This document shows, piece by piece, positions 3,042 through 59,677 of a stretch of 64,000 bases of DNA. How positions within the stretch are numbered: position 1 is the stretch's first letter; each line of letters opens with the position of its first letter. The notes under the pieces were generated by a model. It saw only the letters and a list, made by a program, of their open reading frames with translations, was not told the origin of the DNA and searched no databases. Origin of the DNA: Acidobacteriota bacterium (GTDB lineage Bacteria; Acidobacteriota; Thermoanaerobaculia; Gp7-AA8); NCBI GenBank assembly GCA_003223645.1, contig QHVT01000007.1, positions 106,531 through 170,530 on the forward strand, given 5' to 3'. The position numbers and the translations under genes are program-made.

Positions 3042-5033
3042 TCAAGTGACGTCGACTTCGATCCGCGCGGGCGTCGATCCCGTTTGCGCGAACCACGTCA
3101 CTTTGTTAGCGACGCAGTCGAGCTCGATGATGTAGCGGCCGGGATCGAGCGGCGCGAGGTCGAACGAGATGGTCGTCTCTTCCTGCGGCGCGAGCGCGCG
3201 ATCGAGCGGCTGCCACGCGTAGTCGAAGCGGATCAGCCGTCCGTTTTCGGCGTACAGGTGCGCGCCGAGGACGACGCCGCCGTAGAGAACGTCGGAGGGG
3301 AGCCACTTTGCACGGCCGATATTGCGCACGGTCGCGCGCACCGTCATGCCGGTGATCGATGCGTCGATCGATGCGCGCAGGCCCGCGGGATGACGACTGT
3401 CGATTTCTTCCGCGCCCGCCTTTGTCAGAAAGAAGTCGCGGACGTTGTGGAGAAACGCGCGGGTCGACTCGGCCCAGCGCGCGTACGTTGCGCCGGCGGC
3501 GAGGAGGTCGTCGAACTCGGCGAGCGAGACGTGGAAGGGCGGGACGTTGTAGGCGGCAATTTTCAGATCGGCGAAGCCGAGGCGCTGCGCGGCGTCCCAG
3601 ATCGCGTGAATGTCGACGTCGTTCTCGACGACGCCATACGTGCGCATCTCGTACTGCGACTGCGCGGTCGTCGAATGCAGCGGCCCCGGCTCTGCGAATG
3701 CGGCGATGCCGCCGGGCTTCAGCACGCGTCCGAACTCGCGCAGCACTTCTTCCGGATTCGGCGCGTGATGAAACGCGTCGAAGCAGACGATGCGATCGAC
3801 GCTCGCGTCGGGAAGGTCAATGTGTTGTCCATCGAAGACGAGGAAGCGCGGCTCGGGACGCGTGCCGATCGGCGGCTGCCGCGCGAACAATTCACGCGCG
3901 ATGTTCAGCGCGGTGGGGGAGACGTCGAGCAGGATCGTGTTGCATCCGAGCTGCGCGAGGAAGCGCGAGAGCCATCCCGTGCCCGCGCCGTATTCGAGCA
4001 CGGTCATTCCGGGAGTGAGGTTCAGTCCCTGGATCGTGACGCCGAGGTTGATCAGCAACTGCGGCGCATCCTCGGCGCGCGAGAACGGCTTGGCGAGGTG
4101 ATCTTCCCAGTCGCTGAGCGAAGCGAAATACGCCTCGGCGGTCCGGTTGAGTTCTTCGATCGACGTGGTGGCGATCATCTGTTTTACGTCGATTACTTGT
4201 GGAGCGGCGGCCGCCCCCGGCCGCCGAAACGGAACGGCGTCGATCGCTGGGACGTTTGTTTTTTCGGCGGCCGAGGGCGGCCGCCGCTCCACAGACTCGA
4301 GCTGCGCCCGACGTTGCGCGTAAACGATCACCGAATCCAGATCCCCATGCTTCGAGAAAACCACGTGCGGCGAGTCGAATCCCGCGTCCTGCAGAATCGC
4401 GAATACCTCGTTGATGTCGTAGGTGTTGCTCTCAATGAACGGCTCCGCCGCCGGTTTTCGTCGCAACACGTTGATCGCGGCGTTCACGCCCGGCACGCGT
4501 GCGCGCGCCTTGCGTGAGACGGAAACGAGCGGCGAGAGCTCCGCGCGATACGGAAACTGGAACACGCCGGTGCCGCCTTCGCGCACGCGCTTCGTCAGCG
4601 TGCGCAGCAGGTCGACGCCTTCGCCTCGCGGCAGTCGCTGCAGGACAAGAAAGCAGTTGACGAGATCGAACGTCCGCTCATGGAGCTCGCGTTGCAGCTC
4701 GACGTTCGTCACGCCCGCTTTCGCGATGTGCGTGCGCGCGGTGTCGAGCATCGACTGCGAGATGTCGACGCCGGTGACGTTCGCCGCGCGGCGTGCAAAC
4801 GGAATGAGCAATCGTCCGACGCCGCATCCGTACTCCAGCACCGTCTCCGGAGCGAAGTGCGGCGCGACGCGCGCACGCACGATGCCGTACAGCTCCGACA
4901 CGTACGCTTCTCCGCTGTCGAAGAACTCCGCCTCGGCCGCGGCATCGAAATGTTCGCGCAGGTAGCGCGCGTGTGTGAGGACCGCGAAGTACGGCTCGCG
5001 CGCGGCGAACGCGTCCCACGCGGCGATGTTCAT
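3042..5033 (-). CDS. fused tandem class I SAM-dependent methyltransferase (two MTase domains plus ~170-aa C-terminal domain); linker encoded by a palindromic repeat element
   Basis: Two glycine-rich SAM motifs (VLEYGCGVGRLL and VLEYGAGTGWLSRFL; DRIVCFDAFHH...LKPGGIAAFAEP); continuous 663-aa ORF; residues ~246-280 (ERRPPSAAEKTNVPAIDAVPFRRPGAAAAPQ) are encoded by repeat at 4198-4293. Confidence 0.7.
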   Translation of the reverse strand: MNIAAWDAFAAREPYFAVLTHARYLREHFDAAAEAEFFDSGEAYVSELYGIVRARVAPHFAPETVLEYGCGVGRLLIPFARRAANVTGVDISQSMLDTARTHIAKAGVTNVELQRELHERTFDLVNCFLVLQRLPRGEGVDLLRTLTKRVREGGTGVFQFPYRAELSPLVSVSRKARARVPGVNAAINVLRRKPAAEPFIESNTYDINEVFAILQDAGFDSPHVVFSKHGDLDSVIVYAQRRAQLESVERRPPSAAEKTNVPAIDAVPFRRPGAAAAPQVIDVKQMIATTSIEELNRTAEAYFASLSDWEDHLAKPFSRAEDAPQLLINLGVTIQGLNLTPGMTVLEYGAGTGWLSRFLAQLGCNTILLDVSPTALNIARELFARQPPIGTRPEPRFLVFDGQHIDLPDASVDRIVCFDAFHHAPNPEEVLREFGRVLKPGGIAAFAEPGPLHSTTAQSQYEMRTYGVVENDVDIHAIWDAAQRLGFADLKIAAYNVPPFHVSLAEFDDLLAAGATYARWAESTRAFLHNVRDFFLTKAGAEEIDSRHPAGLRASIDASITGMTVRATVRNIGRAKWLPSDVLYGGVVLGAHLYAENGRLIRFDYAWQPLDRALAPQEETTISFDLAPLDPGRYIIELDCVANKVTWFAQTGSTPARIEVDVT
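4198..4293. repeat. palindromic element family B, copy 1 (inside dual-MTase CDS); copy 2 at 16172-16244
   Basis: tgtggagcggcggccgcc-cccggccgccga ... cggcggccgagggcggccgccgctccaca with ~30-bp arms; second copy has a shorter centre. Confidence 0.8.
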
Positions 5034-5377: not shown

Positions 5378-5396
5378 GGGGCGGGATCATATGCGC

Positions 5397-5507
5397 AGAG
5401 GCTCACAGGCTCAAAGGCGCATGGGCTCAAAGGCGCAGAGGCTCAAAGGCTCATGGGCGCATAGCGGTTTCTCTCTGAGCCTATGCGCCTGTGAGCCTAT
5501 GCGCCTG
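5397..5507. repeat. octamer tandem array (GGCKCANN x8) followed by inverted octamers (TGAGCCTA/TGCGCCTG x2 each) in divergent promoter region of STAS gene and response-regulator operon
   Basis: ggctcaca ggctcaaa ggcgcatg ggctcaaa ggcgcaga ggctcaaa ggctcatg ggcgcata ... tgagccta tgcgcctg tgagccta tgcgcctg. Confidence 0.8.
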
Positions 5508-5547
5508 TCTTCACAACTTCTTCACGAATCTGACTACCATCGATCAG

Positions 5548-6206
5548 TGCGCAGGAAAGTTCTCCTCGTCGAAGACGACCCGAAGATTCGCGGGACGGTC
5601 GAGTTGTACCTGCAGCGCGAGGGCTACGACGTGGCGATTGCGGATGACGGCGTGCGCGCGCTGGAAGTCGCGCGTGATGTGAAGCCGCATCTCGTCTTGC
5701 TCGATCTGATGTTGCCGCGGATGGATGGACTCGAAGTCTGTCGCGCGCTGCGCGCGAACGGCGACGCGGCGATCATCATGGTGACGGCGCGGTCGACCGA
5801 GGACGACAAGCTGACGGGACTCGACCTCGGCGCGGACGACTATGTGACCAAACCGTTCAGTCCCCGCGAGCTGATGGCGCGCATTCGCGCGGTGCTGCGG
5901 CGCGTTGCGGACGATGACGTGATCGAAGTGAGCGGGATGGTGATCGATCGAGCGCAACGCGAGATCCTCGTGGGCGGCGAAGCGATCGGCGTGACGCCGA
6001 CGGAGTATCGCCTGCTGGAGACGCTCGCGCGCGCGGCGGGGCGGACGTTCACGCGGCAGGAGCTGGTCGAGCGCGCGCTCGGCGAGGACTACGACGGGCT
6101 CGATCGCACGGTCGACGTCCACATCATGAATCTGCGCCGCAAGCTGGGCGATGCCGGCAAGGCGATCGTCACCGTCTTCGGCGTCGGCTACCGGTTCGCG
6201 AAATGA
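5548..6206 (+). CDS. OmpR-family response regulator (REC + winged-helix); start uncertain (GTG ~5548, or ATG 5494 inside repeat array)
   Basis: KVLLVEDDPKIRG...LDLMLPRMDGLEV...DDYVTKPFSPREL...TVFGVGYRF; ATGA overlap with downstream kinase. Confidence 0.85.
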
Positions 6207-7474
6207 TCCTGCGCTCGCTTCGCTGGCGTCTCGCGATCGCGATGGCGCTGATCATCGCCGCGGTCTTCGCGGCGGCGGGCGTGTTCTCGAGCCTCACCGT
6301 CAGGCGCGAGTTCGATCAGTTTCTCGTCACGCAGCGAAAGAGCGACATGCGACCCGCCGCGCGCGTCGTCTTCAACGCGCGCGGCGAGATCGTCGAGCGC
6401 TTTCCGCCGGAGTTATCGCAGTTCGACATCCACCGCGACGCGGACGGCACGCTGCATCTCACGCGTCGCAACGGCGGAGGCGCCGAGTCGCTCGTGGTGA
6501 AGACGAGGCCGCTGCGGATCGGAGATGCGAGCGTGTACTTTCTCCCGCGGCCCCAGACGCACGACGCCGTTTTCAAGACGAGCGTGAATCGATCGCTCAT
6601 CGCCGGAGTCGCGATCGCCGCGCTGCTCGCGATCGCGGTGATGATGACGCTGTTTCGCCGCGTGTTCGCGCCCGTCGAAGAGCTGACGCGGGGCGCGCGT
6701 GCGCTCGCCGATGGAAAGCTCGATGCGCGCGTCGACGTGCGGGGACGCGACGAAGTCGCGGAGCTGGCGACGGCGTTCAACGGCATGGCCGAGGCGCTGG
6801 AGCGGAACGAGAAGGCGCGGAGAAACATGGTGAGCGACGTCGCGCATGAATTGCGCACGCCGCTCACGAACATCCGCGCGCAGATCGAGGCCGTGCAGGA
6901 CGGCGTGATGGTCGCGGATGAGAAGTGGCTCGCGTCGATCGAGGAAGACGCGGCGCTGCTCGCGCGGCTCGTCGACGACCTGCAGCAGCTCTCGCTCGCC
7001 GAGGCGGGGCAGTTGCGATTGGAGATCGAAGAGATCGAGATCGCGGAGCTCGTGGAGCGTGCGGTGAGCGGACTCGATGCGCGTGTAGAGGAGAGCGGGC
7101 GTCCCGCCCGCCCCCGGGAGGCGGGCAAGATGCCCGCGCTCCTCCACGATGTCCCGCAAGGTTTGATCGTGCGCGTCGACGCGCAGCGGATGGTGCAGGT
7201 GCTGCGCAATCTGCTCGTGAACGCGATCGCGCATGCGAAGTCGACGGTCGAGATTCGCGCGACGGCGAACGAGATTCGCGTCATCGACGACGGTCCCGGC
7301 GTGCCGCCCGAGCACGCGGAAAAAATCTTCGATCGCTTCTATCGCGCCGATGCCTCGCGCTCGCGCGCAACCGGCGGCACAGGCCTCGGCCTCGCGATCG
7401 CAAAAGAGCTCGTCGAACTGCACGGCGGAAAGATTTGGTATGAAAGGCCGACGTTCGTGATCCGCTTGCCATAG
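6203..7474 (+). CDS. sensor histidine kinase (TM-HAMP-HisKA-HATPase_c) carrying an in-frame palindromic-repeat insertion
   Basis: AHELRTPLTNI H-box, NLLVNAIAHA N-box, DDGPGVPPE, GGTGLGLAIAKELVELHGG; residues ESGRPARPREAGKMPALL encoded by repeat 7089-7145. Confidence 0.85.
   Translation: MILRSLRWRLAIAMALIIAAVFAAAGVFSSLTVRREFDQFLVTQRKSDMRPAARVVFNARGEIVERFPPELSQFDIHRDADGTLHLTRRNGGGAESLVVKTRPLRIGDASVYFLPRPQTHDAVFKTSVNRSLIAGVAIAALLAIAVMMTLFRRVFAPVEELTRGARALADGKLDARVDVRGRDEVAELATAFNGMAEALERNEKARRNMVSDVAHELRTPLTNIRAQIEAVQDGVMVADEKWLASIEEDAALLARLVDDLQQLSLAEAGQLRLEIEEIEIAELVERAVSGLDARVEESGRPARPREAGKMPALLHDVPQGLIVRVDAQRMVQVLRNLLVNAIAHAKSTVEIRATANEIRVIDDGPGVPPEHAEKIFDRFYRADASRSRATGGTGLGLAIAKELVELHGGKIWYERPTFVIRLP
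7089..7145. repeat. REP/MITE-like palindromic element family A, copy 1 (inside histidine kinase CDS)
   Basis: aggagagcgggcgtcccgcccgcc-cccgggag-gcgggcaagatgcccgcgctcctc; further copies 45045-45095 (partial), 54908-54950 (partial), 59578-59635 (full). Confidence 0.8.
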
Positions 7475-7498
7475 GGTCTCGTGCGCATTCGCGATACG

Positions 7499-7582
7499 TT
7501 TGTGGGTGCCGCTGCCCTCAGCGGCACCGCGACCGCTGAGGGCAGCGGTCGCCACAGCTGAGGGCAGCGGTCGCCACAAAGG
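7499..7582. repeat. palindromic element family D, copy 1; copy 2 at 12664-12764
   Basis: tttgtgggtgccgctgccctcagcggcaccgcgaccgctgagggcagcggtcgccaca(gctgagggcagcggtcgccaca)aa; both copies in 3' intergenic gaps. Confidence 0.8.
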
Positions 7583-7588
7583 TTACGC

Positions 7589-8293: not shown

Positions 8294-8302
8294 CGCGCTT
8301 TT

Positions 8303-8364
8303 GGTGTGGGGCAGGCTTTCCAGCCTGCCTCCCGGGGCACAGGCTGGAAAGCCTGTGCCACACC
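8303..8364. repeat. palindromic element family C, copy 1; copy 2 at 33206-33265 flanked by 20-bp direct repeats
   Basis: ggtgtggggcaggctttccagcctgcc-tcccgggg-cacaggctggaaagcctgtgccacacc; shares CCCGGGRG centre with family A. Confidence 0.8.
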
Positions 8365-8377
8365 AGCGCGGCCTATA

Positions 8378-10382: not shown

Positions 10383-10825
10383 AGCTGCGCGTCGCGACCG
10401 CGGACGACGCGCGTTGGATCAACGAGCGCTACGCCGAGGTGCGATTCCTCCCGTCCGATCTCTCGCACGAAGTCATCGTGATCGCGTCGATCGACGACGA
10501 GCCCGCAGGCCTCGGACGCATCGTCGACGTCGACGAACACTCGTGCGAGCTGGGAGGCATGCTCGTGTTCGAGCGGTTCCGCGGCCGCGGCGTCGCGCGC
10601 GCGATCATCGACGAGCTCCTCCGCCACGCGCGCGGACGCGACGTGTACTGCATCCCGTTCGCGGAGTTGGAAGCGCTCTACGCAAGCGCGGGATTCACGC
10701 GCGCAAGCGAAGCGCCGCGCGAGGTGCGGGAGAAGTTCGAATGGTGTCAGCGGACGTATGAGAAGCCGGTGATCCTCACCGTCATCCTGAGGCGCAAAGA
10801 CGCCGAAGGATCTCAGGATACGTAG
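10379..10825 (+). CDS. GNAT-family N-acetyltransferase
   Basis: GLGRIVDVDEHSCELGGMLVFERFRGRGVARAIIDELL acetyl-CoA-binding R/Q-x-x-G-x-G/A motif; GTG start overlapping upstream stop (GTGA). Confidence 0.7.
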   Translation: MKLRVATADDARWINERYAEVRFLPSDLSHEVIVIASIDDEPAGLGRIVDVDEHSCELGGMLVFERFRGRGVARAIIDELLRHARGRDVYCIPFAELEALYASAGFTRASEAPREVREKFEWCQRTYEKPVILTVILRRKDAEGSQDT

Positions 10826-10857
10826 CTTGAGATCCTTCGCCGTCTGCGCGGCTCAGG
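10783..10857. terminator. ~31-bp imperfect inverted repeat between convergent genes; putative bidirectional terminator hairpin
   Basis: cctgaggcgcaaagacgccgaaggatctcag ... cttgagatccttcgccgtctgcgcggctcagg; spans GNAT stop (10825) and thioesterase stop (10868); no clear U-tract. Confidence 0.4.
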
Positions 10858-10867
10858 ATGACGAGAG

Positions 10868-12663: not shown

Positions 12664-12765
12664 TTTGTGGTGACCGCTGCCCCAGCGGTCACACCGCCGC
12701 CATTGGCGGCGGCTCAGCGGCGCGTTGCGCCGCGCGACCGCTGAGGGCAGCGGCCGCCACAAGAA

Positions 12766-16159: not shown

Positions 16160-16252
16160 GCTCGATTGTAGTGTGGAGCGGCGGCCGCCTCGGCCGCCGA
16201 CTTCTCGCGAGAAACCGGCGGCTGAGGGCGGCCGCCGCTCCACAATTCTTCG

Positions 16253-33183: not shown

Positions 33184-33285
33184 TGTTAACCAAATCCCGT
33201 CTCATGGTGGTGTAGGACAGGCTTTCCAGCCTGTCCCCCCGGAGGCGGGCTGGAAAGCCCGCACTACGCCGGGGCTGTTAACCAA
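33184..33285. mobile_element. family C palindromic element bounded by exact 20-bp direct duplication TGTTAACCAAATCCCGTCTC (MITE-like insertion with target-site duplication)
   Basis: tgttaaccaaatcccgtctc at 33184-33203 and again at 33266-33285, bracketing the 60-bp palindrome in the desaturase / beta-lactamase-family divergent intergenic region. Confidence 0.6.
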
Positions 33286-45039: not shown

Positions 45040-45092
45040 CGGTGATCGCGGAGCGAGACGCTCCGCGATGGCGGGCGGGACGCCCGCGCTCC

Positions 45093-46445
45093 TCAGGACA
45101 GTTTGGCTACAACCACCGTCACGTCATCGTCCTGCAGCTCGCTCCCGCGAAAACACTCGACGTCTTTGAGGATCGCGTCGCGCAGCGACTCCGCGCTGCC
45201 GTCGTGTTGTTGCACGAGCGCGGCGAGACGTTCGAGTCCGTACGTTTCACCCGCCTCGTTGCGCGTCTCGTAGACGCCGTCGCTGTGCAGCACGAAGACG
45301 TCGCCGGGGAGGAGGTCGATCGTGCGCTGCGGAATCGTGACTGGGAGGCGCACGCCGAGGGGCGGCGCGAAGAGATCGATCGATGCGACGGAGCCGTCGG
45401 CGCGGCGAAGGATGACGGGTGGATGTCCGGCGCTGGCGATGATCGCGCGACGTTTCGCGCGATCGAGCAGCACGACGGTGACGGTGACGAGCATGCGCCT
45501 GCGGCTCGTCTCCGCGACGAGATCGTGCAGGCGGCGCAACACCACGCCCGGATTGTCGAGCGCGTCGCGCAGCAGGGTGAATCCGCTGCGGATCGCGGAG
45601 AGTACGAGGCCGCTGGCCATTCCGTGTCCGGCGACGTCGCCGCAGACGAGGGCGACGCGATCGCCGTCGACGAAGTAGTCGTAGTAATCGCCGCCGACTT
45701 CCGTCGCCGGGATCGAGATCGCGGCGAGGTCGACCCAGTCGAGCGCCGGCGCGAACTCGGGGAGCATGCTGAGCTGCAGCTCGCGCGCGTAGCGCAGCTC
45801 GTCGCGCATGCGGATCTGCTCGCGCGCGCCGGTGCGGCGCTCGGTCCACTCCGATCGCAGCTGGCGGCGCAGACGCCACGCGCCCCACAGCTCGATCGCC
45901 AGCGCGATCGCGTTGATCACGCCGACGCCAACGTAGTAGCCGATGTCGTCGTCGCGCTTGAAGGGATTGCCGACGATCGACGGCATGAGCAGCGCGCCGC
46001 CCGCGATCACCGCGTGCAGCAGCACGTGCTCGGCGACGTGCATCCGGATCGCGACGACGATCCACGGAAACGCGAACGCCCAGCCCATCCAGTTCTGTCC
46101 CGTGCGCGCGTAGACGAGCAGCAGGACGTATTGCGTGATCGTGAACGAGACGACGGTCGCGGTGACGTGATTGCTCAGCCAGCGGCCCGCGAAGGAGGGA
46201 TGCGCGCGATACGAGTTGCGCACGACCCAGAACACGATCGCGATGAGCGCGAGATTCGCGGTGCCGAGGAGGACGTCGAAGATCGTGTTCGTGCGGGGAT
46301 GCGCGACGGTGTGAATGAACGCGACGATCGCGAAGATGATGAGGAAAATCTGGAGCCAGAAGCGGTTCCGTTGATCGAAGCGGCGGCGGACCACCATCTC
46401 GTCGGTGGTGCGCGCGATCTCGTCGAGGGTGTACGGCACGGTCAT
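45093..46445 (-). CDS. membrane-anchored PP2C-family (SpoIIE/RsbU-like) protein phosphatase
   Basis: N-terminal multi-TM region; EVGGDYYDYF, VCGDVAGHGMASGLV, LHSDGVYE, DDVTVVV PP2C metal-binding motifs. Confidence 0.8.
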   Translation of the reverse strand: MTVPYTLDEIARTTDEMVVRRRFDQRNRFWLQIFLIIFAIVAFIHTVAHPRTNTIFDVLLGTANLALIAIVFWVVRNSYRAHPSFAGRWLSNHVTATVVSFTITQYVLLLVYARTGQNWMGWAFAFPWIVVAIRMHVAEHVLLHAVIAGGALLMPSIVGNPFKRDDDIGYYVGVGVINAIALAIELWGAWRLRRQLRSEWTERRTGAREQIRMRDELRYARELQLSMLPEFAPALDWVDLAAISIPATEVGGDYYDYFVDGDRVALVCGDVAGHGMASGLVLSAIRSGFTLLRDALDNPGVVLRRLHDLVAETSRRRMLVTVTVVLLDRAKRRAIIASAGHPPVILRRADGSVASIDLFAPPLGVRLPVTIPQRTIDLLPGDVFVLHSDGVYETRNEAGETYGLERLAALVQQHDGSAESLRDAILKDVECFRGSELQDDDVTVVVAKLS

Positions 46446-51201: not shown

Positions 51202-51297
51202 CGTGTCATTCCGAGCCGCGCAGACGGCGAGGAATCTCCCGCCTCGCGAGCTGCAGGGGATTCCTCGCCGTCGTTGCGGCTCGGAATGACACGGTGA

Positions 51298-54033
51298 TTA
51301 CAGCTTCTCCGGATCTACCTTCGCGATCTCGCCGAGGTTCAACTCGCGAATCCCTGCCTCCACCTTCTTCAAATCGCCGACGATGATCCAAATCACTTCG
51401 TCGGGATGCACAACTTTTTTCGCGGCGTCGTTCAGATTCGTCTCGGTCAGCGCGCGGATGTTGTTCGCGTATTGGGCGTAGTACTCCTCGGGGCGGCCGG
51501 TGGTGAGCATGCCGATGGCGGCGGCGTTGAGCGAGCCGAGTGTCTCGTACGCGCCGGGGAGCCGCATCACCTGGCTGCGCATGATGCTCGTGAATTCTTC
51601 GCCCTCGATCGGGCGCGCGCCGGCGACGCCGGCGATTTCCTTTTGCACTTCGAGGATCGACTCTTTCGTCTTGTCGGTCTGCACCGGCGCGATCACGAGG
51701 AACGGGCGCGGTCCGCGCGTCGTGTTCAGCGCGCCGCTCGTTCCGTAGCTCCAGTGTTTGTCGAGGCGCAGGTTACGATTGAGGCGCGACGTCGACATGC
51801 CTCCGAAGTTGCGCAGCACGGTTTCAATCGCGAGGTCTTCCGGCAGTCCTCCCGCCTCGGAGACATGCGCCGCGACGACGACGGATTGCGGCGCGTCCGG
51901 CTTGTCGATGAGATACACCTTCTTGCCGGTCGAGCGCGGCACCGCGTCGATCTTCTTCGCCGGCGCCTGTCCCGATTTCCACGACGCGAATGCTTTCTCG
52001 AGCTCGGGCACGAGCTTCTCCATCGTGGTGTCGCCGACGACGACGAGCGTGCTGTTGTTCGGATGGAACCACGCGCGATGCCACGCGACGAGATCGCTGC
52101 GCGTCATCTTCGCGAGCGTCGACGCGTAGCCGGTGCCGGTGAACGGAGTGCCGTACGCGTGGTTCTCGCCGTACAGCAGCAGCGGCGCGATACGCAGTGC
52201 GGCGGTCTGCGGCTGCACCTGTTCCTGCTTGATGCGTGTGATGTGCTGTTGCCGCAGCAGCGACACCTGATCTTCGGGGAATGCCGGATGCAGAACGACG
52301 TCCGAGTAGATCGCGAGCGACGGACCGAGGTTCGTCGATAGCGCGGAGAGGGACACGAACGACAGATCGAGTGAGTTGCTGGTGAAGACCCGCGCGCCGA
52401 TCGCGTCGAGCTCGTCCTGAATCTTGAAAGCGTCGCGCGTATCGGTGCCTTCGTCGAGCACGTCCATCGCGAGACCCGCGAGTCCGGCAGTCTTCGCGCT
52501 GTCCGACGCCGAGCCCGCGTCGACGGTGAGCGTCGCGTTGACGAGCGGCACGTTGTGACGCTCCATCAGCATCACCTTGAGTCCGTTCGACAGCGTGGCG
52601 CGCTGCACTTTCGGGAACTTCACTTCGGGCGCGTCGCCGAGGATGGGGAGGGCTTTGCGATCGAGGCTCGTGCTGCCGGCGCTCAGTTGCGGGAACGGCT
52701 GCACGACCATCGTGTAGTGATTTGTGTCGAGCCACTGCTTCGCGGCCTTCGTCACTTCGGCCGGCGTCGCCGTCGCCATCGTCTGCAGGCGATCGAGGTA
52801 GTAGTTCGGATTGCCGCCGTAGGTCATGCTCTCCGCGAGGACGTCGGCACGGCCGCCGAATGCGCCGAGGCGCTCGGTGCCGCGAACGTAGGCGGCGAGA
52901 TTGCGCGACTGCGCGCGTTTCAGCTCCTCGTCGGTCGGACCGTTTTTTACGAGCTCCGCGACGACCGCGTCGATTTCTTTCTCCACTTCGGCCGGCCGCA
53001 CGCCCGGCTTCACCGTCGCCTGGATGATGAGACCACTCGCGATCTCGCCGTCGGAGATGAACGCGGCGACGTCGGTGGCGAGGTTCTTGTCGTAGATCAG
53101 CCGGCGATCGAGTCGCGCGCTCTTCGATCCGCTCAGCACATCGGCGATGAGCGACACGTATTGCAGCTGCAGGTCCTTCCACGCCGGCGCGTGGTAGAAG
53201 CGATAGACGCGAGCCTGCGGGACGCGGTCGAACATCGAGTCGCGCAGGTTGTGATCGAATTTCGGGATCCACGTTTCGGCTCGCGTGAGTGGCGGTCCGG
53301 GCGCGACGCCGTTAAAGTATTTCTTCACCACCTCGAGCGCGTGCTGCGGGGTGATGTCGCCGGAGAGGACGAGCACGCAGTTGTTCGGACCGTAGTAGGT
53401 CTTGTACCAGTCGCGCACGTCGTCGAGTTGCGCGGCGTTGAGGTCCTCCATGCTGCCGATCGTCGACCATGAATACGGATGCGAGTACGGGTAGACGATC
53501 TCGCTGATGCGATCGTAGACCTTGCCATACGGCTGGTTCTCGCCCTGCCGCTTCTCGTTCTGCACGACGCCGCGCTCGCGCTCGAGCATCTCCTTCGAGA
53601 TCTGTGCGGCGAGGAAGCCCATGCGATCGGCTTCGAGATAGAGCGTGCGTTCGAGCGCGGAGACCGGGACATCCTCGAAGAAATTCGTGCGATCGGTGTT
53701 GGTCGTGCCGTTGCGATTGTTCGCGCCGAGGTCGTCCATCGCCTCGCGAAAGCCGTGCGGATAGTTCTCGCTGCCGTTGAAGAAGAAGTGCTCGAACAAA
53801 TGCGCGAAGCCCGTCTTCCCGCGCTTCTCGTTGCGCGAGCCGACGTGATACCAGAGATTGACCGCGACGATCGGCACGCTGTGGTCCTCGTGCACGAGCA
53901 GCGTGAGCCCGTTGTCGAGCACGAACTTCTCATGCTTTATCTCAAACTGACTGCGGTTGAAGGAGGGCTTCGCCTCCGGAGCAGCGAGCGTCGGGAAGGC
54001 AAGCGTCAGCGCGAGAAAGGCCGCGAATTTCAT
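51298..54033 (-). CDS. secreted M16-family (pitrilysin-like) zinc peptidase, tandem M16 halves
   Basis: Signal peptide MKFAAFLALTLAFPTLA; inverted zinc motif HLFEHFFF (HxxEH); ~910 aa. Confidence 0.85.
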   Translation of the reverse strand: MKFAAFLALTLAFPTLAAPEAKPSFNRSQFEIKHEKFVLDNGLTLLVHEDHSVPIVAVNLWYHVGSRNEKRGKTGFAHLFEHFFFNGSENYPHGFREAMDDLGANNRNGTTNTDRTNFFEDVPVSALERTLYLEADRMGFLAAQISKEMLERERGVVQNEKRQGENQPYGKVYDRISEIVYPYSHPYSWSTIGSMEDLNAAQLDDVRDWYKTYYGPNNCVLVLSGDITPQHALEVVKKYFNGVAPGPPLTRAETWIPKFDHNLRDSMFDRVPQARVYRFYHAPAWKDLQLQYVSLIADVLSGSKSARLDRRLIYDKNLATDVAAFISDGEIASGLIIQATVKPGVRPAEVEKEIDAVVAELVKNGPTDEELKRAQSRNLAAYVRGTERLGAFGGRADVLAESMTYGGNPNYYLDRLQTMATATPAEVTKAAKQWLDTNHYTMVVQPFPQLSAGSTSLDRKALPILGDAPEVKFPKVQRATLSNGLKVMLMERHNVPLVNATLTVDAGSASDSAKTAGLAGLAMDVLDEGTDTRDAFKIQDELDAIGARVFTSNSLDLSFVSLSALSTNLGPSLAIYSDVVLHPAFPEDQVSLLRQQHITRIKQEQVQPQTAALRIAPLLLYGENHAYGTPFTGTGYASTLAKMTRSDLVAWHRAWFHPNNSTLVVVGDTTMEKLVPELEKAFASWKSGQAPAKKIDAVPRSTGKKVYLIDKPDAPQSVVVAAHVSEAGGLPEDLAIETVLRNFGGMSTSRLNRNLRLDKHWSYGTSGALNTTRGPRPFLVIAPVQTDKTKESILEVQKEIAGVAGARPIEGEEFTSIMRSQVMRLPGAYETLGSLNAAAIGMLTTGRPEEYYAQYANNIRALTETNLNDAAKKVVHPDEVIWIIVGDLKKVEAGIRELNLGEIAKVDPEKL

Positions 54034-54087
54034 GCGCGGCATTGTAGGGCGGGGACTTTGGATTGCGGTGACAACGTCACCGCTTTC

Positions 54088-54543: not shown

Positions 54544-54948
54544 GTCCGAATCCTCTCACAGCCCACAACGCGTACGCCGTATCCAGCAGCGCCACCATCG
54601 CCTCGATGCGCTCCTCCTGCGTCGCCGCGAGCGCATCCTCGACGTCCTGCCGGACGATCTCCTCCTCGGAGCGAACGAGCGGCATACGGCGAGACTTTGC
54701 GCGTTGATTCGTCATTTGTCCGCCGCGTACGCCAACCCGTCCGGCTCCGTCCCCGTCTCTACTTCTCCGGCGAAAAACGCCGCGGCGAATTTCATGCACG
54801 GCATTGTAGGGCGGGGGCTTTGGACTGCGGTGACAACGTCACCGCTTTTTTGATAGGGCTCCGTGCATGCTCTTGAAAGCGGCGGCGTAGCCGCCGCAGT
54901 CCAAAGGACCCGCCCGCCCCACGGGAGGCGGGCAGGATGCCCGCTCTC

Positions 54949-55734
54949 CTATGAGCTCGGGCGCGTGGTGAAGTAGCGTTTGAGCCACTTCGACAAGCCG
55001 TCGAGTCCGGGGAAGAGCACGCGCTCGGTGATGTTGGCCTGATCGAGTTTGTCGCGGATCTCCCACTTCAATGCCGCGGGGACGATGATGCGCCGGTGGG
55101 TGTCGTCGTGCTGTGCGAGGAGGTCTTCCAGTCGCAGGGAGGCGCTCGACGGCAATGAGAAGAGCGCGAACTGGTTGACGATGCGCTCGTCGAGCGACGG
55201 CGGCTCGAAGAAGAGGACGAAGTCTTCGCGCGCCAGCGCATCGAACGACTCGAGGGTCGTGGCAACGCTGTTCAACAAGTCGGTGGTAAAGATGTTGACG
55301 TCCTCGGCGTCGAGGACTTTGCGCAGCGGGCGGGGGAGGAGGTCGTTGGTCTTGCGATAGTCGACGCACCAGATCGTTGCGTCTTCGTTGAAGTGCGCGA
55401 GCTCGTTGGTCGCGAAGTGCAGCGCGACGTACGGCGAGTACGTCCAGTCGAGAAGCCGCGTCGGCAGTCCGTGATGTTTGGCGAGCGAGAGCCAGTTCCA
55501 CACGAAGTCGCCGTGGACGGCGTTGCGCGCCGCGTATTTGCGGAAGCTCGTGAGGAGGTGCCGTTCGTGCGCCACGAAGTTGCCGGTCTGCAGACTCGTG
55601 TCGAGTCCGTGGCTCGCACGCGGGGCTCCGCGAAACACGAAGTTCGAGCGATGGCGCGAGAGCGAGTCCTGCCAGGAATTGTCGAACAGGGCCTCCTGCA
55701 GCTCGATCCACGTCGATACGCGCGTCTCTCTCAC
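54949..55734 (-). CDS. FRG-domain protein; start uncertain (GTG 55734; track ORF extends to 56064 through antisense of neighbouring gene)
   Basis: NFVFRGAPRASHGL (FRG motif) and downstream WTYSPYVALHFA. Confidence 0.5.
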   Translation of the reverse strand: MRETRVSTWIELQEALFDNSWQDSLSRHRSNFVFRGAPRASHGLDTSLQTGNFVAHERHLLTSFRKYAARNAVHGDFVWNWLSLAKHHGLPTRLLDWTYSPYVALHFATNELAHFNEDATIWCVDYRKTNDLLPRPLRKVLDAEDVNIFTTDLLNSVATTLESFDALAREDFVLFFEPPSLDERIVNQFALFSLPSSASLRLEDLLAQHDDTHRRIIVPAALKWEIRDKLDQANITERVLFPGLDGLSKWLKRYFTTRPSS

Positions 55735-55810: not shown

Positions 55811-56749
55811 ATGCTCGAACGAATCCGGAACGCGGTGCGTGCGAGCGCAGATGAGAAACCTCTTCCGCGCAAGACGACCGAGGTGCGCTTCGACGGCCTC
55901 GGCCTCCAGGATCCGATCGAGCGCGCGCAGACGCACGAGCCCGCGCTGATCCTCCTCGAGGGCGACTTTCCGGGACAGGTGTTTCGCCTGCGGCAGGGAC
56001 GGCAGATCATCGGACGCCGACCGGAGTGCGACATCCGCCTGCGCGAGCGCGCGGTCAGCGGCATTCACGCGGAGGTCGTGCGTATGCGCGACACCGTCAC
56101 GATCAACGACCTCGCCAGCACCAACGGCACGCTCGTCAACGGCATGCGCATCCGCCATCCGGTTCCGCTGGTCGGCGGCAATCTGCTGAAGGTCGGCAAC
56201 TGCGTGTTCAAGTACGTCGACTCGCTGCTCGACGTCGAGTTCACCGAGGCGCTGCATTCGCGCGGCATCACCGACCAGCTCACCGGCGCTTACAACAAGG
56301 CCTACATCGTCGCGCGGCTCGCGTTTCTGATCGACACGGCCTCGGACACGAAGCCGATGAGTTTGATCACGTTCGACTTCGACAACTTCAAACAGGTGAA
56401 CGATCAGTTCGGACACGCGGCCGGCGACTACGTGCTGCGCGCGACGTCGTCGCTGATCGTCTCGCAGTTCGTGCGGCCGCAGGACGTGTTCGCGCGGACG
56501 GGCGGCGAAGAGTTCGTGATCGTGCTGCCGGAGACGCCGCTCGACGTCGCGACGAAAGTGGCGGAGCGCATCCGGCAGATGTTCGAAGAGAAGACGTTCG
56601 AGTTCGAGGGACAGGAGATCCGGCTCACGTCTTCGTTCGGCGTCTGCAGCCTGACGAGCGCGGTGGAACCGCCGGAGGCGCTGCTCGAGCGCGTCGACGA
56701 TCTGCTGTACCGCTCCAAGCGCGAAGGCCGCAATCGCGTGACGGCGTAG
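55811..56749 (+). CDS. FHA-domain-containing diguanylate cyclase (FHA + GGDEF)
   Basis: FHA core (QIIGRRPECDIRLRERAVSGIHAEV...TNGTLVNG); GGDEF domain with RTGGEEF active site and RxxD-like region. Confidence 0.8.
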   Translation: MLERIRNAVRASADEKPLPRKTTEVRFDGLGLQDPIERAQTHEPALILLEGDFPGQVFRLRQGRQIIGRRPECDIRLRERAVSGIHAEVVRMRDTVTINDLASTNGTLVNGMRIRHPVPLVGGNLLKVGNCVFKYVDSLLDVEFTEALHSRGITDQLTGAYNKAYIVARLAFLIDTASDTKPMSLITFDFDNFKQVNDQFGHAAGDYVLRATSSLIVSQFVRPQDVFARTGGEEFVIVLPETPLDVATKVAERIRQMFEEKTFEFEGQEIRLTSSFGVCSLTSAVEPPEALLERVDDLLYRSKREGRNRVTA

Positions 56750-56950
56750 CGCCTTCCTCGGTCACGCAGTTGCGCGGTCACTCGGTTGCGCGGGGAAGCA
56801 GCGCCGCGCAACCGAGCGACTACGCAACCGAGCAACCGGGTGAGGGCGTAGCGCCTTCCTCGGTTACGCAGTTGCGCGGTCACTCGGTTGCGCGGGGAAG
56901 CAGCGCCGGGCAACTGAGCGACTGCGCAACCGAGCAACCGGGTGAGGGCG
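56747..56950. repeat. 2 x 102-bp tandem direct repeat, each unit with internal dyads
   Basis: Unit agcgccttcctcggtcacgcagttgcgcggtcactcggttgcgcggggaagcagcgccgcgcaaccgagcgactacgcaaccgagcaaccgggtgagggcgt repeated with few mismatches; contains ctcggttgcgcgg...ccgcgcaaccgag 13-bp inverted repeat; fills the whole gap between convergent genes. Confidence 0.85.
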
Positions 56951-59549: not shown

Positions 59550-59677
59550 TGCGCGATGCCCGGATATCGATCGAAAAGAGGAGAGCGGGCATCCTGCCCG
59601 CCTTCCGCGGGCGGGCGGGACGCCCGCTCTCCTCGGTGCGGGGAGCAGGTGCCCCGTGTGATGCGAACATCTCATCA

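What the first reader, a model, noticed from the sequence alone, without database searches (positions are those of the whole stretch)
7089..7145. Palindromic repeat (family A) inserted in-frame inside a sensor histidine kinase, between the DHp and ATPase domains
The 57-bp palindrome translates as ESGRPARPREAGKMPALL within the otherwise canonical kinase 6203..7474, just upstream of the N-box (LRNLLVNAIAHA).
- The same element occurs intergenically at 59578-59635 and as partial copies at 45045 and 54908, so the kinase copy is an insertion, not ancestral sequence.
- The ORF remains open, so the kinase is either tolerant of an ~18-residue loop insertion or inactivated at the protein level.
Basis: seen in the sequence. 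Interest (0 to 1): 0.65.

Follow-up and report, generated by a model that had tools for sequence, protein, structure and literature searches.

The report
Mobile palindrome inserted in-frame in kinase
A 57-base mobile palindromic repeat has landed in-frame inside a bacterial sensor kinase gene, adding a 19-residue surface loop that the enzyme tolerates; this kind of event is already known from Rickettsia and other bacteria, so it is a good new example rather than a new phenomenon.

Summary
A 57-nt imperfect palindrome sits at window 7088-7144, one base off the reported coordinates. It is exactly 19 codons (EESGRPARPREAGKMPALL) inside an intact HAMP-HisKA-HATPase_c kinase (6203-7474).

- **Other copies:** a second full copy (59578-59634) and two partial copies lie in the window. 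More than 100 further copies occur in soil metagenomes.
- **Derived insert:** close orthologues (74-88% identity) lack the segment, so it is not ancestral.
- **Tolerated:** one other lineage (90% identity) shares it. dN/dS between the two insert-bearing genes is 0.145, and 0.085 in the catalytic domain downstream. All catalytic motifs are intact.
- **Position:** AlphaFold places the insert as a low-confidence surface loop inside the ATP-binding domain, between helix α1 and the strand before the N-box. Solved kinases vary in length there.
- **Element type:** it looks like a REPIN, an inverted doublet of a 25-nt REP hairpin. It has no target-site duplication and is stop-free in all six frames.
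- **General habit:** about one copy in five in my sample lies in-frame inside genuine genes (PBP1A, tricorn-like protease, E1 dehydrogenase and others).
- **Repeated hit:** a related 48-51-nt subfamily hit the same kinase loop independently in other lineages.

This is a new member of a known kind (Rickettsia RPEs, intragenic REPs). Interest is moderate.

The parts
7088..7144 (+). 57-nt REPIN-like palindromic element (family A). It is 19 in-frame codons, EESGRPARPREAGKMPALL, residues 296-314 of the kinase.
   Evidence: It is absent from orthologues. An identical 57-mer lies at an unrelated locus, L085 4714-4770.
7088..7112 (+). Left REP unit: head GAGGAGA plus a mini-hairpin GCGGGC-GTCCC-GCCCGC(C).
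   Evidence: Compensatory changes across 33 copies preserve the pairs within each arm (99% paired). They do not preserve pairs between the arms.
7113..7119 (+). Central spacer (CCCGGGA) between the two inverted REP units.
   Evidence: The spacer varies in length and sequence among copies.
7120..7144 (+). Right REP unit in inverted orientation (GGCGGGC-AAGAT-GCCCGC-GCTCCTC).
   Evidence: The same unit occurs alone at 45070-45094.
7076..7087 (+). Remodelled left junction (GAT GCG CGT GTA = DARV). It replaces the ancestral GYG TTC GCG AAT YTC (xFxNL).
   Evidence: DNA alignment with insert-free orthologues L001, L038, L039 and L041, and with insert-bearing L002, which has 21 nt here.
6203..7474 (+). 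Host gene: a membrane sensor histidine kinase (HAMP, HisKA, HATPase_c), 423 aa, with an intact ORF.
5547..6206 (+). Cognate OmpR-family response regulator. Its stop overlaps the kinase start. The start coordinate is approximate, inferred from 219-aa orthologues.
59578..59634 (-). Second full family A copy. It is intergenic, in the opposite orientation to the kinase copy, and is followed by TTTT on the minus strand.
45070..45094 (+). Single REP arm (singlet) of family A.
54909..54950 (+). Partial (42-nt) family A copy.

Best explanation
**What it is.** The 57-nt sequence is a copy of a short, non-autonomous, GC-rich palindromic repeat of the REP/REPIN type. It consists of two inverted 25-nt REP units, each a GAGGAGA head plus a hairpin with a 6-bp stem and 5-nt loop, around a 7-nt spacer.

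**What happened (shown).** A copy entered the coding sequence of a two-component sensor kinase in an uncultured Acidobacteriota (Thermoanaerobaculia-like) lineage. The element is a multiple of three in length and has no stop codon in any of its six frames, so the reading frame survived. It now encodes 19 Gly/Pro/Arg/Ala-rich residues. The kinase has stayed under purifying selection, so it is most likely still functional.

**Where it sits (predicted).** The residues lengthen helix α1 of the catalytic ATP-binding domain and form a flexible surface loop before the strand that leads into the N-box helix. This segment naturally varies in length among histidine kinases.

**How it got there (inferred).** Transposition by a RAYT-type (IS200-like Y1) transposase acting on single-stranded hairpins is the likely route. 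Selection then removed insertions everywhere except in tolerant loops. The peptide itself probably has no specific function.
For: **Repeat family**
- Two full and two partial copies lie in the window.
- The consensus is 57 nt long.

**Derived state**
- Insert-free orthologues at 74-88% identity keep xFxNL, as do distant outgroups.

**Not an assembly artefact**
- Identical DNA sits on 14 contigs from several JGI and ENA samples.
- An independently assembled, diverged allele (L002) also carries the insert.

**Tolerance**
- dN/dS between the window and L002 is 0.145 for the whole gene and 0.085 after the insert. That matches the 0.137-0.144 seen against the insert-free L001.
- The two substitutions in the element between the window and L002 are both synonymous.
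- The catalytic motifs are intact.

**Structure**
- Insert-bearing AF2 model: helix 280-297, residues 299-305 below pLDDT 50, strand 312-316, N-box helix 327-344 with pLDDT above 90.
- Insert-free model: helix 280-288, then strands at 296-299 and 305-309, and the same fold otherwise.
- Solved WalK (4u7n, 5c93) aligns through the insert with only a 4-residue gap and VicK (4i5s) with a 6-residue gap, so this segment is normally long in histidine kinases.

**General habit of the family**
- 16 of 74 copies, in 13 distinct genes, lie in open frames with coding signal on both sides.
- The host ORFs carry real Pfam domains, on both sides of the element in several of them: PBP1A, tricorn-like protease, FAD oxidoreductase, E1 dehydrogenase, GH3, GT1, FtsX/MacB, DUF255.

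**REP/REPIN anatomy**
- Covariation supports an outer stem plus two mini-hairpins: 0 of 500 shuffles reach the observed values. One long hairpin is not supported above shuffles.
- A singlet arm exists at 45070.
- There are no target-site duplications.
- A family sharing the core flanks a Y1_Tnp gene in L016.
Against: - No RAYT gene was found in the 1.15 Mb of sequence held for family A genomes, so the mobilising enzyme is unproven for this lineage.
- The head is GAGG, not the canonical GTAG or GTGG.
- The left junction is remodelled. 12-21 nt replace 15 ancestral nt, so the event was not a simple cut-and-paste.
- The two insert-bearing genes are not sister lineages. P0002 groups with insert-free P0006 at 95.5% bootstrap, with 7.3% against 10.7% DNA distance. 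The time each lineage has carried the insert may therefore be shorter than the gene divergence, which weakens the dN/dS argument somewhat.
- Kinase activity and expression were not and cannot be tested here.
- The structure is a prediction (mean pLDDT 78).
Confidence: 0.85

Rival explanations
1. The insertion inactivated the kinase. The ORF is open only because the element has no stop codons and too little time has passed for decay.
For: The element is stop-free in all six frames and a multiple of 3 in length, so an open frame alone proves nothing (sequence). The insert allele may be younger than the gene divergence: 2/57 differences in the element against 10.7% across the gene.
Against: - dN/dS is 0.085-0.145 between the insert-bearing alleles, the same as against the insert-free allele.
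- No frameshift or stop is seen in either lineage, nor in the three lineages that carry the related 48-51-nt insert.
- All catalytic motifs are invariant.
- The predicted fold is undisturbed.
- Other genes that carry the element in frame also keep open reading frames, for example PBP1A and E1 dehydrogenase.
Confidence: 0.07
2. The insert has been exapted. Either the new loop or the strong mRNA hairpin modulates kinase activity or expression, and the allele spread because it is advantageous.
For: - Two independent insertions of related elements hit the same loop in orthologous kinases.
- Both insert alleles occur in non-sister lineages. Around family A there is a local patch of shared sites: 11:4 against 34:87 elsewhere, Fisher p = 0.0009, or p = 0.03 without the junction columns.
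- The element is more conserved (2/57) than synonymous sites of the gene (dS 0.35).
- The hairpin is about -51 kcal/mol in the mRNA.
Against: - The same element sits in many unrelated proteins, which argues against a specific role.
- The loop is predicted to be disordered.
- Most close orthologues do well without it.
- No terminator, promoter or Rfam family matches.
- Conservation of the element can come from its young age or from gene conversion with other copies.
Confidence: 0.08
3. The window lineage and the L002 lineage acquired the element independently at the same site (site-specific targeting). They did not inherit one insertion that later moved by homologous recombination.
For: - The gene tree separates the two insert-bearing genes.
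- The left junctions differ: 12 nt against 21 nt of non-homologous-looking sequence.
- The empty site of P0003 already ends in CTCCTC, the terminal hexamer of the element. This hints at microhomology-guided entry.
Against: - Position, orientation and frame are the same, the first junction codon (GAT) is shared, and the elements are 55/57 identical.
- About 45-90 nt of upstream host sequence also favours window = L002. That fits a transferred patch better than two separate hits.
Confidence: 0.2
4. It is a metagenome assembly artefact, with a repeat collapsed into the kinase gene.
For: The window comes from a metagenome-assembled genome, and repeats are classic sources of misassembly.
Against: The identical gene appears on 14 contigs from several samples and assemblers. 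A diverged allele with the same insert comes from another study. The insert is perfectly in frame.
Confidence: 0.01

Closest known systems
Rickettsia palindromic elements (RPE; Ogata et al. 2000/2002, as summarised in PMC10969869 and PMC3733652)
   Same: - A short palindromic repeat family with many copies inserted in-frame in unrelated, apparently functional genes.
- The inserted peptide lies at positions compatible with the fold.
- Intergenic copies also exist.
   Different: - RPEs are about 100-150 bp, AT-rich and restricted to Rickettsia. This element is 57 nt, about 80% G+C, and found in Acidobacteriota (Thermoanaerobaculia-like).
- No sequence relationship to RPEs is expected, and none was tested.
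- About 20% of copies are intragenic in my sample, against nearly half for some RPE families.
Intragenic GTAG/CGTC-tagged REPs (Di Nocera et al. 2013, PMC3733652: Opitutus terrae, Thauera, R. conorii and others)
   Same: - REP dimers encoding about 20-30 amino acids inside known genes.
- Most copies are intergenic, downstream of ORFs.
- The authors likewise argue that insertion into unrelated proteins speaks against a specific function.
   Different: - The head here is GAGGAGA, not GTAG or CGTC, although sister families with the same core carry GTGG or GTAG.
- That survey highlights DNA-repair genes. The hosts here are a kinase, PBP1A, proteases and oxidoreductases.
REPIN-RAYT systems (Bertels & Rainey 2011, PMC3116915; PMC3337134)
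   Same: - Two REP hairpins in inverted orientation around a short spacer.
- Singlets occur as remnants.
- High copy number and no target-site duplication.
- A Y1 (IS200-like) transposase flanked by REPs that share the core, seen in L016.
   Different: - No cognate RAYT was found for family A itself.
- REPINs are described as extragenic, whereas here a sizeable minority is intragenic.
Bacterial MITEs (Correia/NEMIS, Nezha, ERIC; PMC10969869)
   Same: Small non-autonomous repeats that fold into hairpins and can create in-frame fusions.
   Different: MITEs are 70-300 bp with terminal inverted repeats and target-site duplications. This element is 57 nt and shows no TSD.

Membership tests
REP/REPIN (RAYT-associated palindromic repeats) | The unit is a short (20-40 nt) imperfect palindrome that forms its own hairpin. 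| tested here: met
   The 25-nt arm has a 6-bp stem and a 5-nt loop. Pairs within each arm are 99% paired, with GC-to-CG compensatory changes. 0 of 500 shuffles reach the observed covariation.
REP/REPIN (RAYT-associated palindromic repeats) | Two units in inverted orientation separated by a short spacer (REPIN), with singlets also present. | tested here: met
   Arms at 7088-7112 and 7120-7144 with a 7-nt spacer. A singlet lies at 45070-45094.
REP/REPIN (RAYT-associated palindromic repeats) | Conserved GTAG or GTGG tetranucleotide head next to the hairpin. | tested here: inconclusive
   Family A has GAGGAGA. Some copies (L018, L082, L143) and sister families have GTGGAGA, GTAGA or GTGGG. The kinase copy happens to be preceded by GTA-G.
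REP/REPIN (RAYT-associated palindromic repeats) | A cognate RAYT (Y1_Tnp) gene flanked by the REPs in the same genome. | tested here: inconclusive
   tblastn with two RAYT probes found none in the window or in 117 family A loci, 1.15 Mb in all. RAYTs are usually single-copy, so they are easily missed. A Y1_Tnp (PF01797, 37.9 bits) flanked by REPs sharing the core was found in Victivallales locus L016.
REP/REPIN (RAYT-associated palindromic repeats) | High copy number, mostly extragenic, no target-site duplication. | tested here: met
About 80% of copies are not in CDS. No consistent flanking direct repeats were found.
In-frame intragenic palindromic elements (RPE-like behaviour) | Copies of one repeat family lie in-frame inside several unrelated genuine genes. 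| tested here: met
   13 distinct host genes. Pfam domains were found in 10 of the 12 host ORFs scanned, on both sides of the element in several.
In-frame intragenic palindromic elements (RPE-like behaviour) | Host genes remain functional or under selection. | tested here: met
   dN/dS is 0.145 for the whole gene and 0.085 after the insert, for the kinase only. Expression and activity are not testable here.
In-frame intragenic palindromic elements (RPE-like behaviour) | The insertion lies at a surface or loop position compatible with the fold. | tested here: met
   AF2 models with and without the insert. Solved kinases are long in this segment. This rests on prediction only.
Rickettsia RPE families proper | Sequence homology to RPE-1 to RPE-10 (about 100-150 bp, Rickettsia). 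| not tested
   No RPE sequences were at hand. Size (57 nt), G+C content and host phylum all differ, so membership is not claimed.
MITE | Terminal inverted repeats of an IS plus target-site duplications, length 70-300 bp. | tested here: not met
   No TSD in 72 flanks. The length is 57 nt.
HisKA-type sensor histidine kinase (host gene) | H-box histidine in the DHp domain, and N, G1, F and G2 boxes in the catalytic domain. | tested here: met
   Pfam HAMP, HisKA and HATPase_c. H215, N340, DDGPG, FDRFYR and GGTGLGLAI are invariant in 71 homologues. PDB hits WalK, VicK and HK853 score E = 1e-27 to 1e-34.

The most novel reading that the evidence does not exclude
The α1-β loop of the catalytic domain in this kinase family may be a preferred landing or retention site for REPIN-type elements, and the insert alleles may be exchanged between lineages because they are useful. 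The use could be a hairpin that tunes translation of the kinase relative to its co-transcribed regulator, or a flexible loop that shifts the kinase/phosphatase balance. That would make REPIN insertion a recurrent source of adaptive protein or mRNA variation, not only tolerated junk. A second, wider reading: the hairpin core GCGGGC-N5-GCCCGC, shared from Planctomycetota to Cyanobacteria, marks one ancient or horizontally spreading REP-RAYT superfamily.
Probability: 0.1. Interest if true: 0.7.

Novelty: new member of a known kind. Interest (0 to 1): 0.4.

Why it matters
- **Extends a known phenomenon.** In-frame palindromic insertion is best known from the AT-rich obligate intracellular Rickettsia. 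This case is in a free-living, GC-rich soil lineage (Acidobacteriota, Thermoanaerobaculia-like).
- **Gives a dated natural experiment.** Insert-free and insert-bearing orthologues and a second independent hit in the same loop are all available. A sensor kinase's catalytic domain accepts about 19 extra residues between helix α1 and the N-box strand, which is useful for engineering insertion-tolerant sites in histidine kinases.
- **Affects annotation.** Low-complexity G/P/R/A-rich stretches such as EESGRPARP…MPALL inside otherwise conserved proteins of these phyla are likely translated repeats, not domain linkers or errors.

Tried and rejected
- **Peptide census.** I tried to find all proteins carrying the element-encoded peptide in the 5.8-billion-protein index. 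A 57-aa concatenate found 1399 word-sharing candidates, but none scored E ≤ 10. I replaced this with a DNA scan plus my own coding-potential classifier.
- **Fuzzy-regex census of the window.** It timed out, so I used blastn-short instead.
- **Rfam.** Only sub-threshold microRNA and CRISPR-repeat look-alikes matched, which are generic hairpins. I rejected a known RNA family.
- **Intrinsic terminator or sigma-70 promoter in or near the kinase copy.** None was found.
- **RAYT search.** The window and all family A loci gave nothing.
- **One long 25-bp hairpin as the conserved structure.** Covariation was no better than shuffles. I rejected it in favour of an outer stem plus two mini-hairpins.
- **MITE with target-site duplication.** No TSD was found.
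- **Intein or other self-splicing element.** I did not pursue this. 19 residues with no conserved catalytic residues is far too small.
- **Literature search for the core sequence motif.** It returned no paper.
Full report
**1. The observation**

The 57-mer GAGGAGAGCGGGCGTCCCGCCCGCCCCCGGGAGGCGGGCAAGATGCCCGCGCTCCTC lies at window 7088-7144, one base left of the reported coordinates. It is an imperfect palindrome with 31-nt arms that are 81% complementary. As RNA it folds at -51 kcal/mol on the plus strand and -57 on the minus strand, 6.6-7.8 standard deviations below shuffled controls.

It begins on a codon boundary of ORF 6203..7474 and adds the 19 residues EESGRPARPREAGKMPALL. The ORF is a typical membrane sensor kinase with HAMP 151-200, HisKA 205-269 and HATPase_c 326-423. 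It follows, and overlaps by ATGA, an OmpR-type response regulator.

- a full copy at 59578-59634, 93% identical in the opposite orientation;
- a single 25-nt arm at 45070-45094;
- a 42-nt partial copy at 54909-54950.

The 59578 copy is intergenic. It lies just past the stop of a cytochrome-c-like gene on the minus strand and is followed there by TTTT.

**2. The segment is a derived insert**

A search of the protein collection found the identical protein (P0001, annotated as from an Acidobacteria MAG) and a graded series of orthologues, mostly labelled Thermoanaerobaculia.

- Orthologues at 74-88% identity (P0003-P0011) and more distant ones read …LVERAVSGL-xFxNL-xRDVPRGL… with no insert.
- Only P0002 (90% identity, a different study) has the same insert.
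- The empty site in DNA is GGACTC GYG TTC GCG AAT YTC STS CGC GAC.
- The window has GGACTC GAT GCG CGT GTA [57 nt] CAC GAT.
- L002 has GGGCTC GAT TCG ATG CTC TTT CTC GCC [57 nt, two synonymous differences] CGC GAT.

So about 15 ancestral nucleotides (xFxNL) were replaced at the left junction, and no target-site duplication is visible. Loss of the insert cannot regenerate xFxNL, so the insert-free state is ancestral.

The allele is not an assembly artefact. The identical gene sequence sits on 14 contigs from several JGI and ENA samples.

**3. Tolerated or inactivating?**

Nei-Gojobori estimates between the two insert-bearing genes:

| Comparison | dS | dN | dN/dS |
|---|---|---|---|
| Window vs L002, whole gene | 0.345 | 0.050 | 0.145 |
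| Window vs L002, HAMP + DHp | | | 0.074 |
| Window vs L002, catalytic domain after the insert | | | 0.085 |
| Against the insert-free L001 | | | 0.137-0.144 |

All catalytic motifs (H215, N-box, DDGPG, FDRFYR, GGTGLGLAI) are invariant.

AlphaFold2 with a 71-sequence alignment gave two comparable models:
- Insert-bearing protein: strand 276-279, helix 280-297, a loop with pLDDT below 50 at 299-305, strands 312-316 and 322-325, then the N-box helix 327-344 with pLDDT above 90.
- Insert-free P0003: the same fold with a shorter helix (280-288) and a short connection.

The insert is therefore inside the catalytic ATP-binding domain, after its first strand and helix. It is not between domains in the structural sense. 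It falls between the Pfam HisKA and HATPase_c models only because the Pfam HATPase_c model starts late.

Solved WalK (4u7n, 5c93) and VicK (4i5s) kinases align across the insert with only 4- and 6-residue gaps. This segment is normally long in histidine kinases, and the insert-free family is unusually short there. I conclude the insert is tolerated as a surface loop.

One caveat applies. The two insert-bearing genes are not sisters (section 5), so each may have carried the insert for less time than the gene divergence suggests.

**4. What the element is**

Many came from one set of large contigs (Ga0209468).
- The consensus is GAGGAGAGCGGGCGTCCCGCCCGCCCCCGGGAGGCGGGCAGGATGCCCGCTCTCCTC.
- The modal length is 57 nt (34 of 58 strict copies), with 51-59-nt variants.
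- One copy at an unrelated locus (L085) is identical to the kinase copy.

On 33 distinct 57-mers I compared two structures:
- One long hairpin shows no covariation above shuffles.
- An outer stem plus two 6-bp mini-hairpins (GCGGGC-N5-GCCCGC) is 99% paired within each arm, with GC-to-CG compensatory changes. It exceeds all 500 shuffles on every measure.

Each arm is therefore an autonomous hairpin unit, and the 57-mer is an inverted doublet. Together with the singlet at 45070, this is the anatomy of a REPIN (definition in PMC3337134 and PMC3116915).

There are no target-site duplications. Flanks favour CC…GG, and many intergenic copies carry a further outer inverted repeat, TCTCCCCGCA / TGCGGGGAGA.

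The mobilising enzyme is unproven for this lineage:
- I found no RAYT in the 1.15 Mb held for family A.
- A scan of species-representative genomes showed the same hairpin core, with different outer stems, in Planctomycetota, Binatia, Chloroflexota, Armatimonadota, Cyanobacteria, Victivallales and Thermoanaerobaculia.
- In the Victivallales locus L016 the core flanks a Y1_Tnp (IS200-like) gene, a REPtron-like arrangement.

**5. In-frame insertion is a habit of this family**

I trained a codon log-odds model on 175 long ORFs. I then looked for copies with an uninterrupted frame and coding signal on both flanks. This flagged 16 of 74 copies, in 13 distinct genes.

Hosts with Pfam support include PBP1A, a tricorn-like protease, an FtsX/MacB permease, a GT1 glycosyltransferase, an FAD-dependent oxidoreductase, a DUF255 thioredoxin-like protein, a GH3 hydrolase, a 2-oxoacid dehydrogenase E1 and YfhO-like membrane proteins. 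In PBP1A the element lies inside the region matched by the OB-like domain model. In the E1 dehydrogenase it lies inside the E1 domain.

The element has no stop codon in any of its six frames (read directly from the sequence). Nine of the 13 use the GAG-GAG phase (EE[S/G]GR…), which by my own estimate is more than the one third expected by chance.

The kinase loop was hit twice. P0012, P0016 and P0024 carry a 48-51-nt element in place of VSGLxFxN(LxxD), a few codons upstream of the family A site:
- Its sequence is TGGGGG-GCGGGCGTCCCGCCCGCC-TGG-CGGGCTGGAAGCCCGC-CCCCCA.
- It has the same core as family A but a different outer stem and loop.
- It belongs to the 51-nt subfamily seen elsewhere, for example at L055 and L080.

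Both insert types are scattered on the gene tree:
- P0002 groups with insert-free P0006 at 95.5% bootstrap.
- P0024 groups with insert-free P0008 and P0010 at 99%.
- P0002 differs from P0006 at 7.3% of DNA sites and from the window at 10.7%. Yet just upstream of the insert, the sites shared by window and L002 outnumber those shared by L002 and P0006 by 11:4, against 34:87 elsewhere. Fisher p = 0.0009, or 0.03 when the non-homologous junction columns are excluded.

The simplest reading is one family A insertion whose short tract later moved between related lineages by homologous recombination. Independent same-site insertion is not excluded.

**6. Comparison with what is known**

In-frame palindromic insertions are well documented:
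- Rickettsia palindromic elements are inserted in many unrelated genes (reviewed in PMC10969869 and in the background of PMC3733652).
- Di Nocera et al. (PMC3733652) list intragenic GTAG/CGTC REPs, often dimers encoding 20-30 residues, in Opitutus terrae, Thauera and other species. They argue, as I do, that decoration of unrelated proteins speaks against a specific function.

The present element behaves like these and is built like a REPIN. It is not a member of the Rickettsia RPE families, given its size, composition and host. It fails the MITE criteria because it has no target-site duplication. Its core motif does not appear in the searchable literature.

**7. Verdict**

The open alternative is resolved in favour of tolerance, and the domain position is refined. 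This is a new member of a known kind.

Four points go beyond the routine: the second independent hit in the same loop, the allele sharing across lineages, the high intragenic fraction in a free-living GC-rich bacterium, and the hairpin core shared across phyla. Interest is 0.4.

Noticed in passing
window 4198-4293 (minus-strand ORF 3042..5033): This is a second in-frame palindromic insertion in the same window. It is a 96-nt doublet of a different, GTGG-headed repeat (TGTGGAGCGGCGGCCGCC…, arms 97% complementary). It encodes SVERRPPSAAEK…PFRRPGAAAAPQ in the linker between the two methyltransferase domains of a 663-aa protein. Orthologues are shorter there: L001 has a single arm read in another frame, and L041 has yet another REPIN family at the same linker. 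Another copy lies at 16216-16252.
   Followed up: partly
L016 255-3851 (Victivallales MAG, CAZGBW010000017.1): A whole REPtron sits in the same open reading frame as a 1198-aa MmeI-family restriction-modification gene. The REPtron is a Y1_Tnp/RAYT-like gene flanked by GGGGGC-GCGGGCGTCTCGCCCGCC… repeats. The gene also carries at least two further in-frame REPIN-like inserts. It is unclear whether the host enzyme is still functional.
   Followed up: partly
L005-L037 (genome-contig hits): The hairpin core GCGGGC-GTCYC-GCCCGCC … GGCGGGC-GRGAC-GCCCGC recurs in at least eight phylum-level groups: Planctomycetota, Binatia, Chloroflexota, Armatimonadota, Cyanobacteria, Victivallales, Thermoanaerobaculia and unclassified bacteria. 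Only the outer stems are lineage-specific: GGGAGC, GTGGG, GGGGG, GTAGA, GAGGAGA. I could not tell convergence from a shared or horizontally spread REP-RAYT system.
   Followed up: partly
P0026 (orthologous kinase, alignment A1 columns about 388-400): Another orthologue carries a different extra peptide (RPSPWPSPRERGEG) in a loop after the N-box helix. It looks like a translated repeat of yet another family.
   Followed up: no
window 7491-7588, and 12731-12762: Another palindromic repeat family (TTGTGGGTGCCGCTGCCCTCAGCGGC…, with a tandem GCTGAGGGCAGCGGTCGCCACA) fills the spacer right after the kinase stop codon. In L001 a converging PPDK-like gene sits there instead.
   Followed up: no
window 8302-8369 and 33208-33275; 10780-10863 and 51202-51293; 54020-54086 and 54782-54848: At least three more palindromic or dispersed repeat families occur in the 64-kb window: TGGTGTGGGGCAGGCTTTCCAGCCTGCC…; CGTCATCCTGAGGCGCAAAGACGCCGAAGGATCTCAGGAT…; and a 67-nt repeat at 94% identity. 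The genome is unusually rich in repeats.
   Followed up: no
window 5383-5504: An 8-nt tandem array (AGGCTCAA/AGGCGCAG, about 10 units) is followed by its inverted complement, just upstream of the response-regulator gene (D1, I23). It may be a regulatory or slippage-prone tract.
   Followed up: no
window 56730-56947: A 102-nt tandem duplication (93% identity) is itself internally palindromic (94-nt arms, 72% complementary), with CCGCGCAACCGAG-type subrepeats (D4, I1, I8).
   Followed up: no
Family A copies in L051, L053, L054, L058, L096, L116, L131, L155 and others; window 59635-59648: Many intergenic family A copies are nested inside a longer palindrome with outer arms TCTCCCCGCA(nn)CC … GG(nn)TGCGGGGAGA. 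The full mobile unit may therefore be about 85-90 nt. The kinase and other intragenic copies have only the 57-nt centre.
   Followed up: partly
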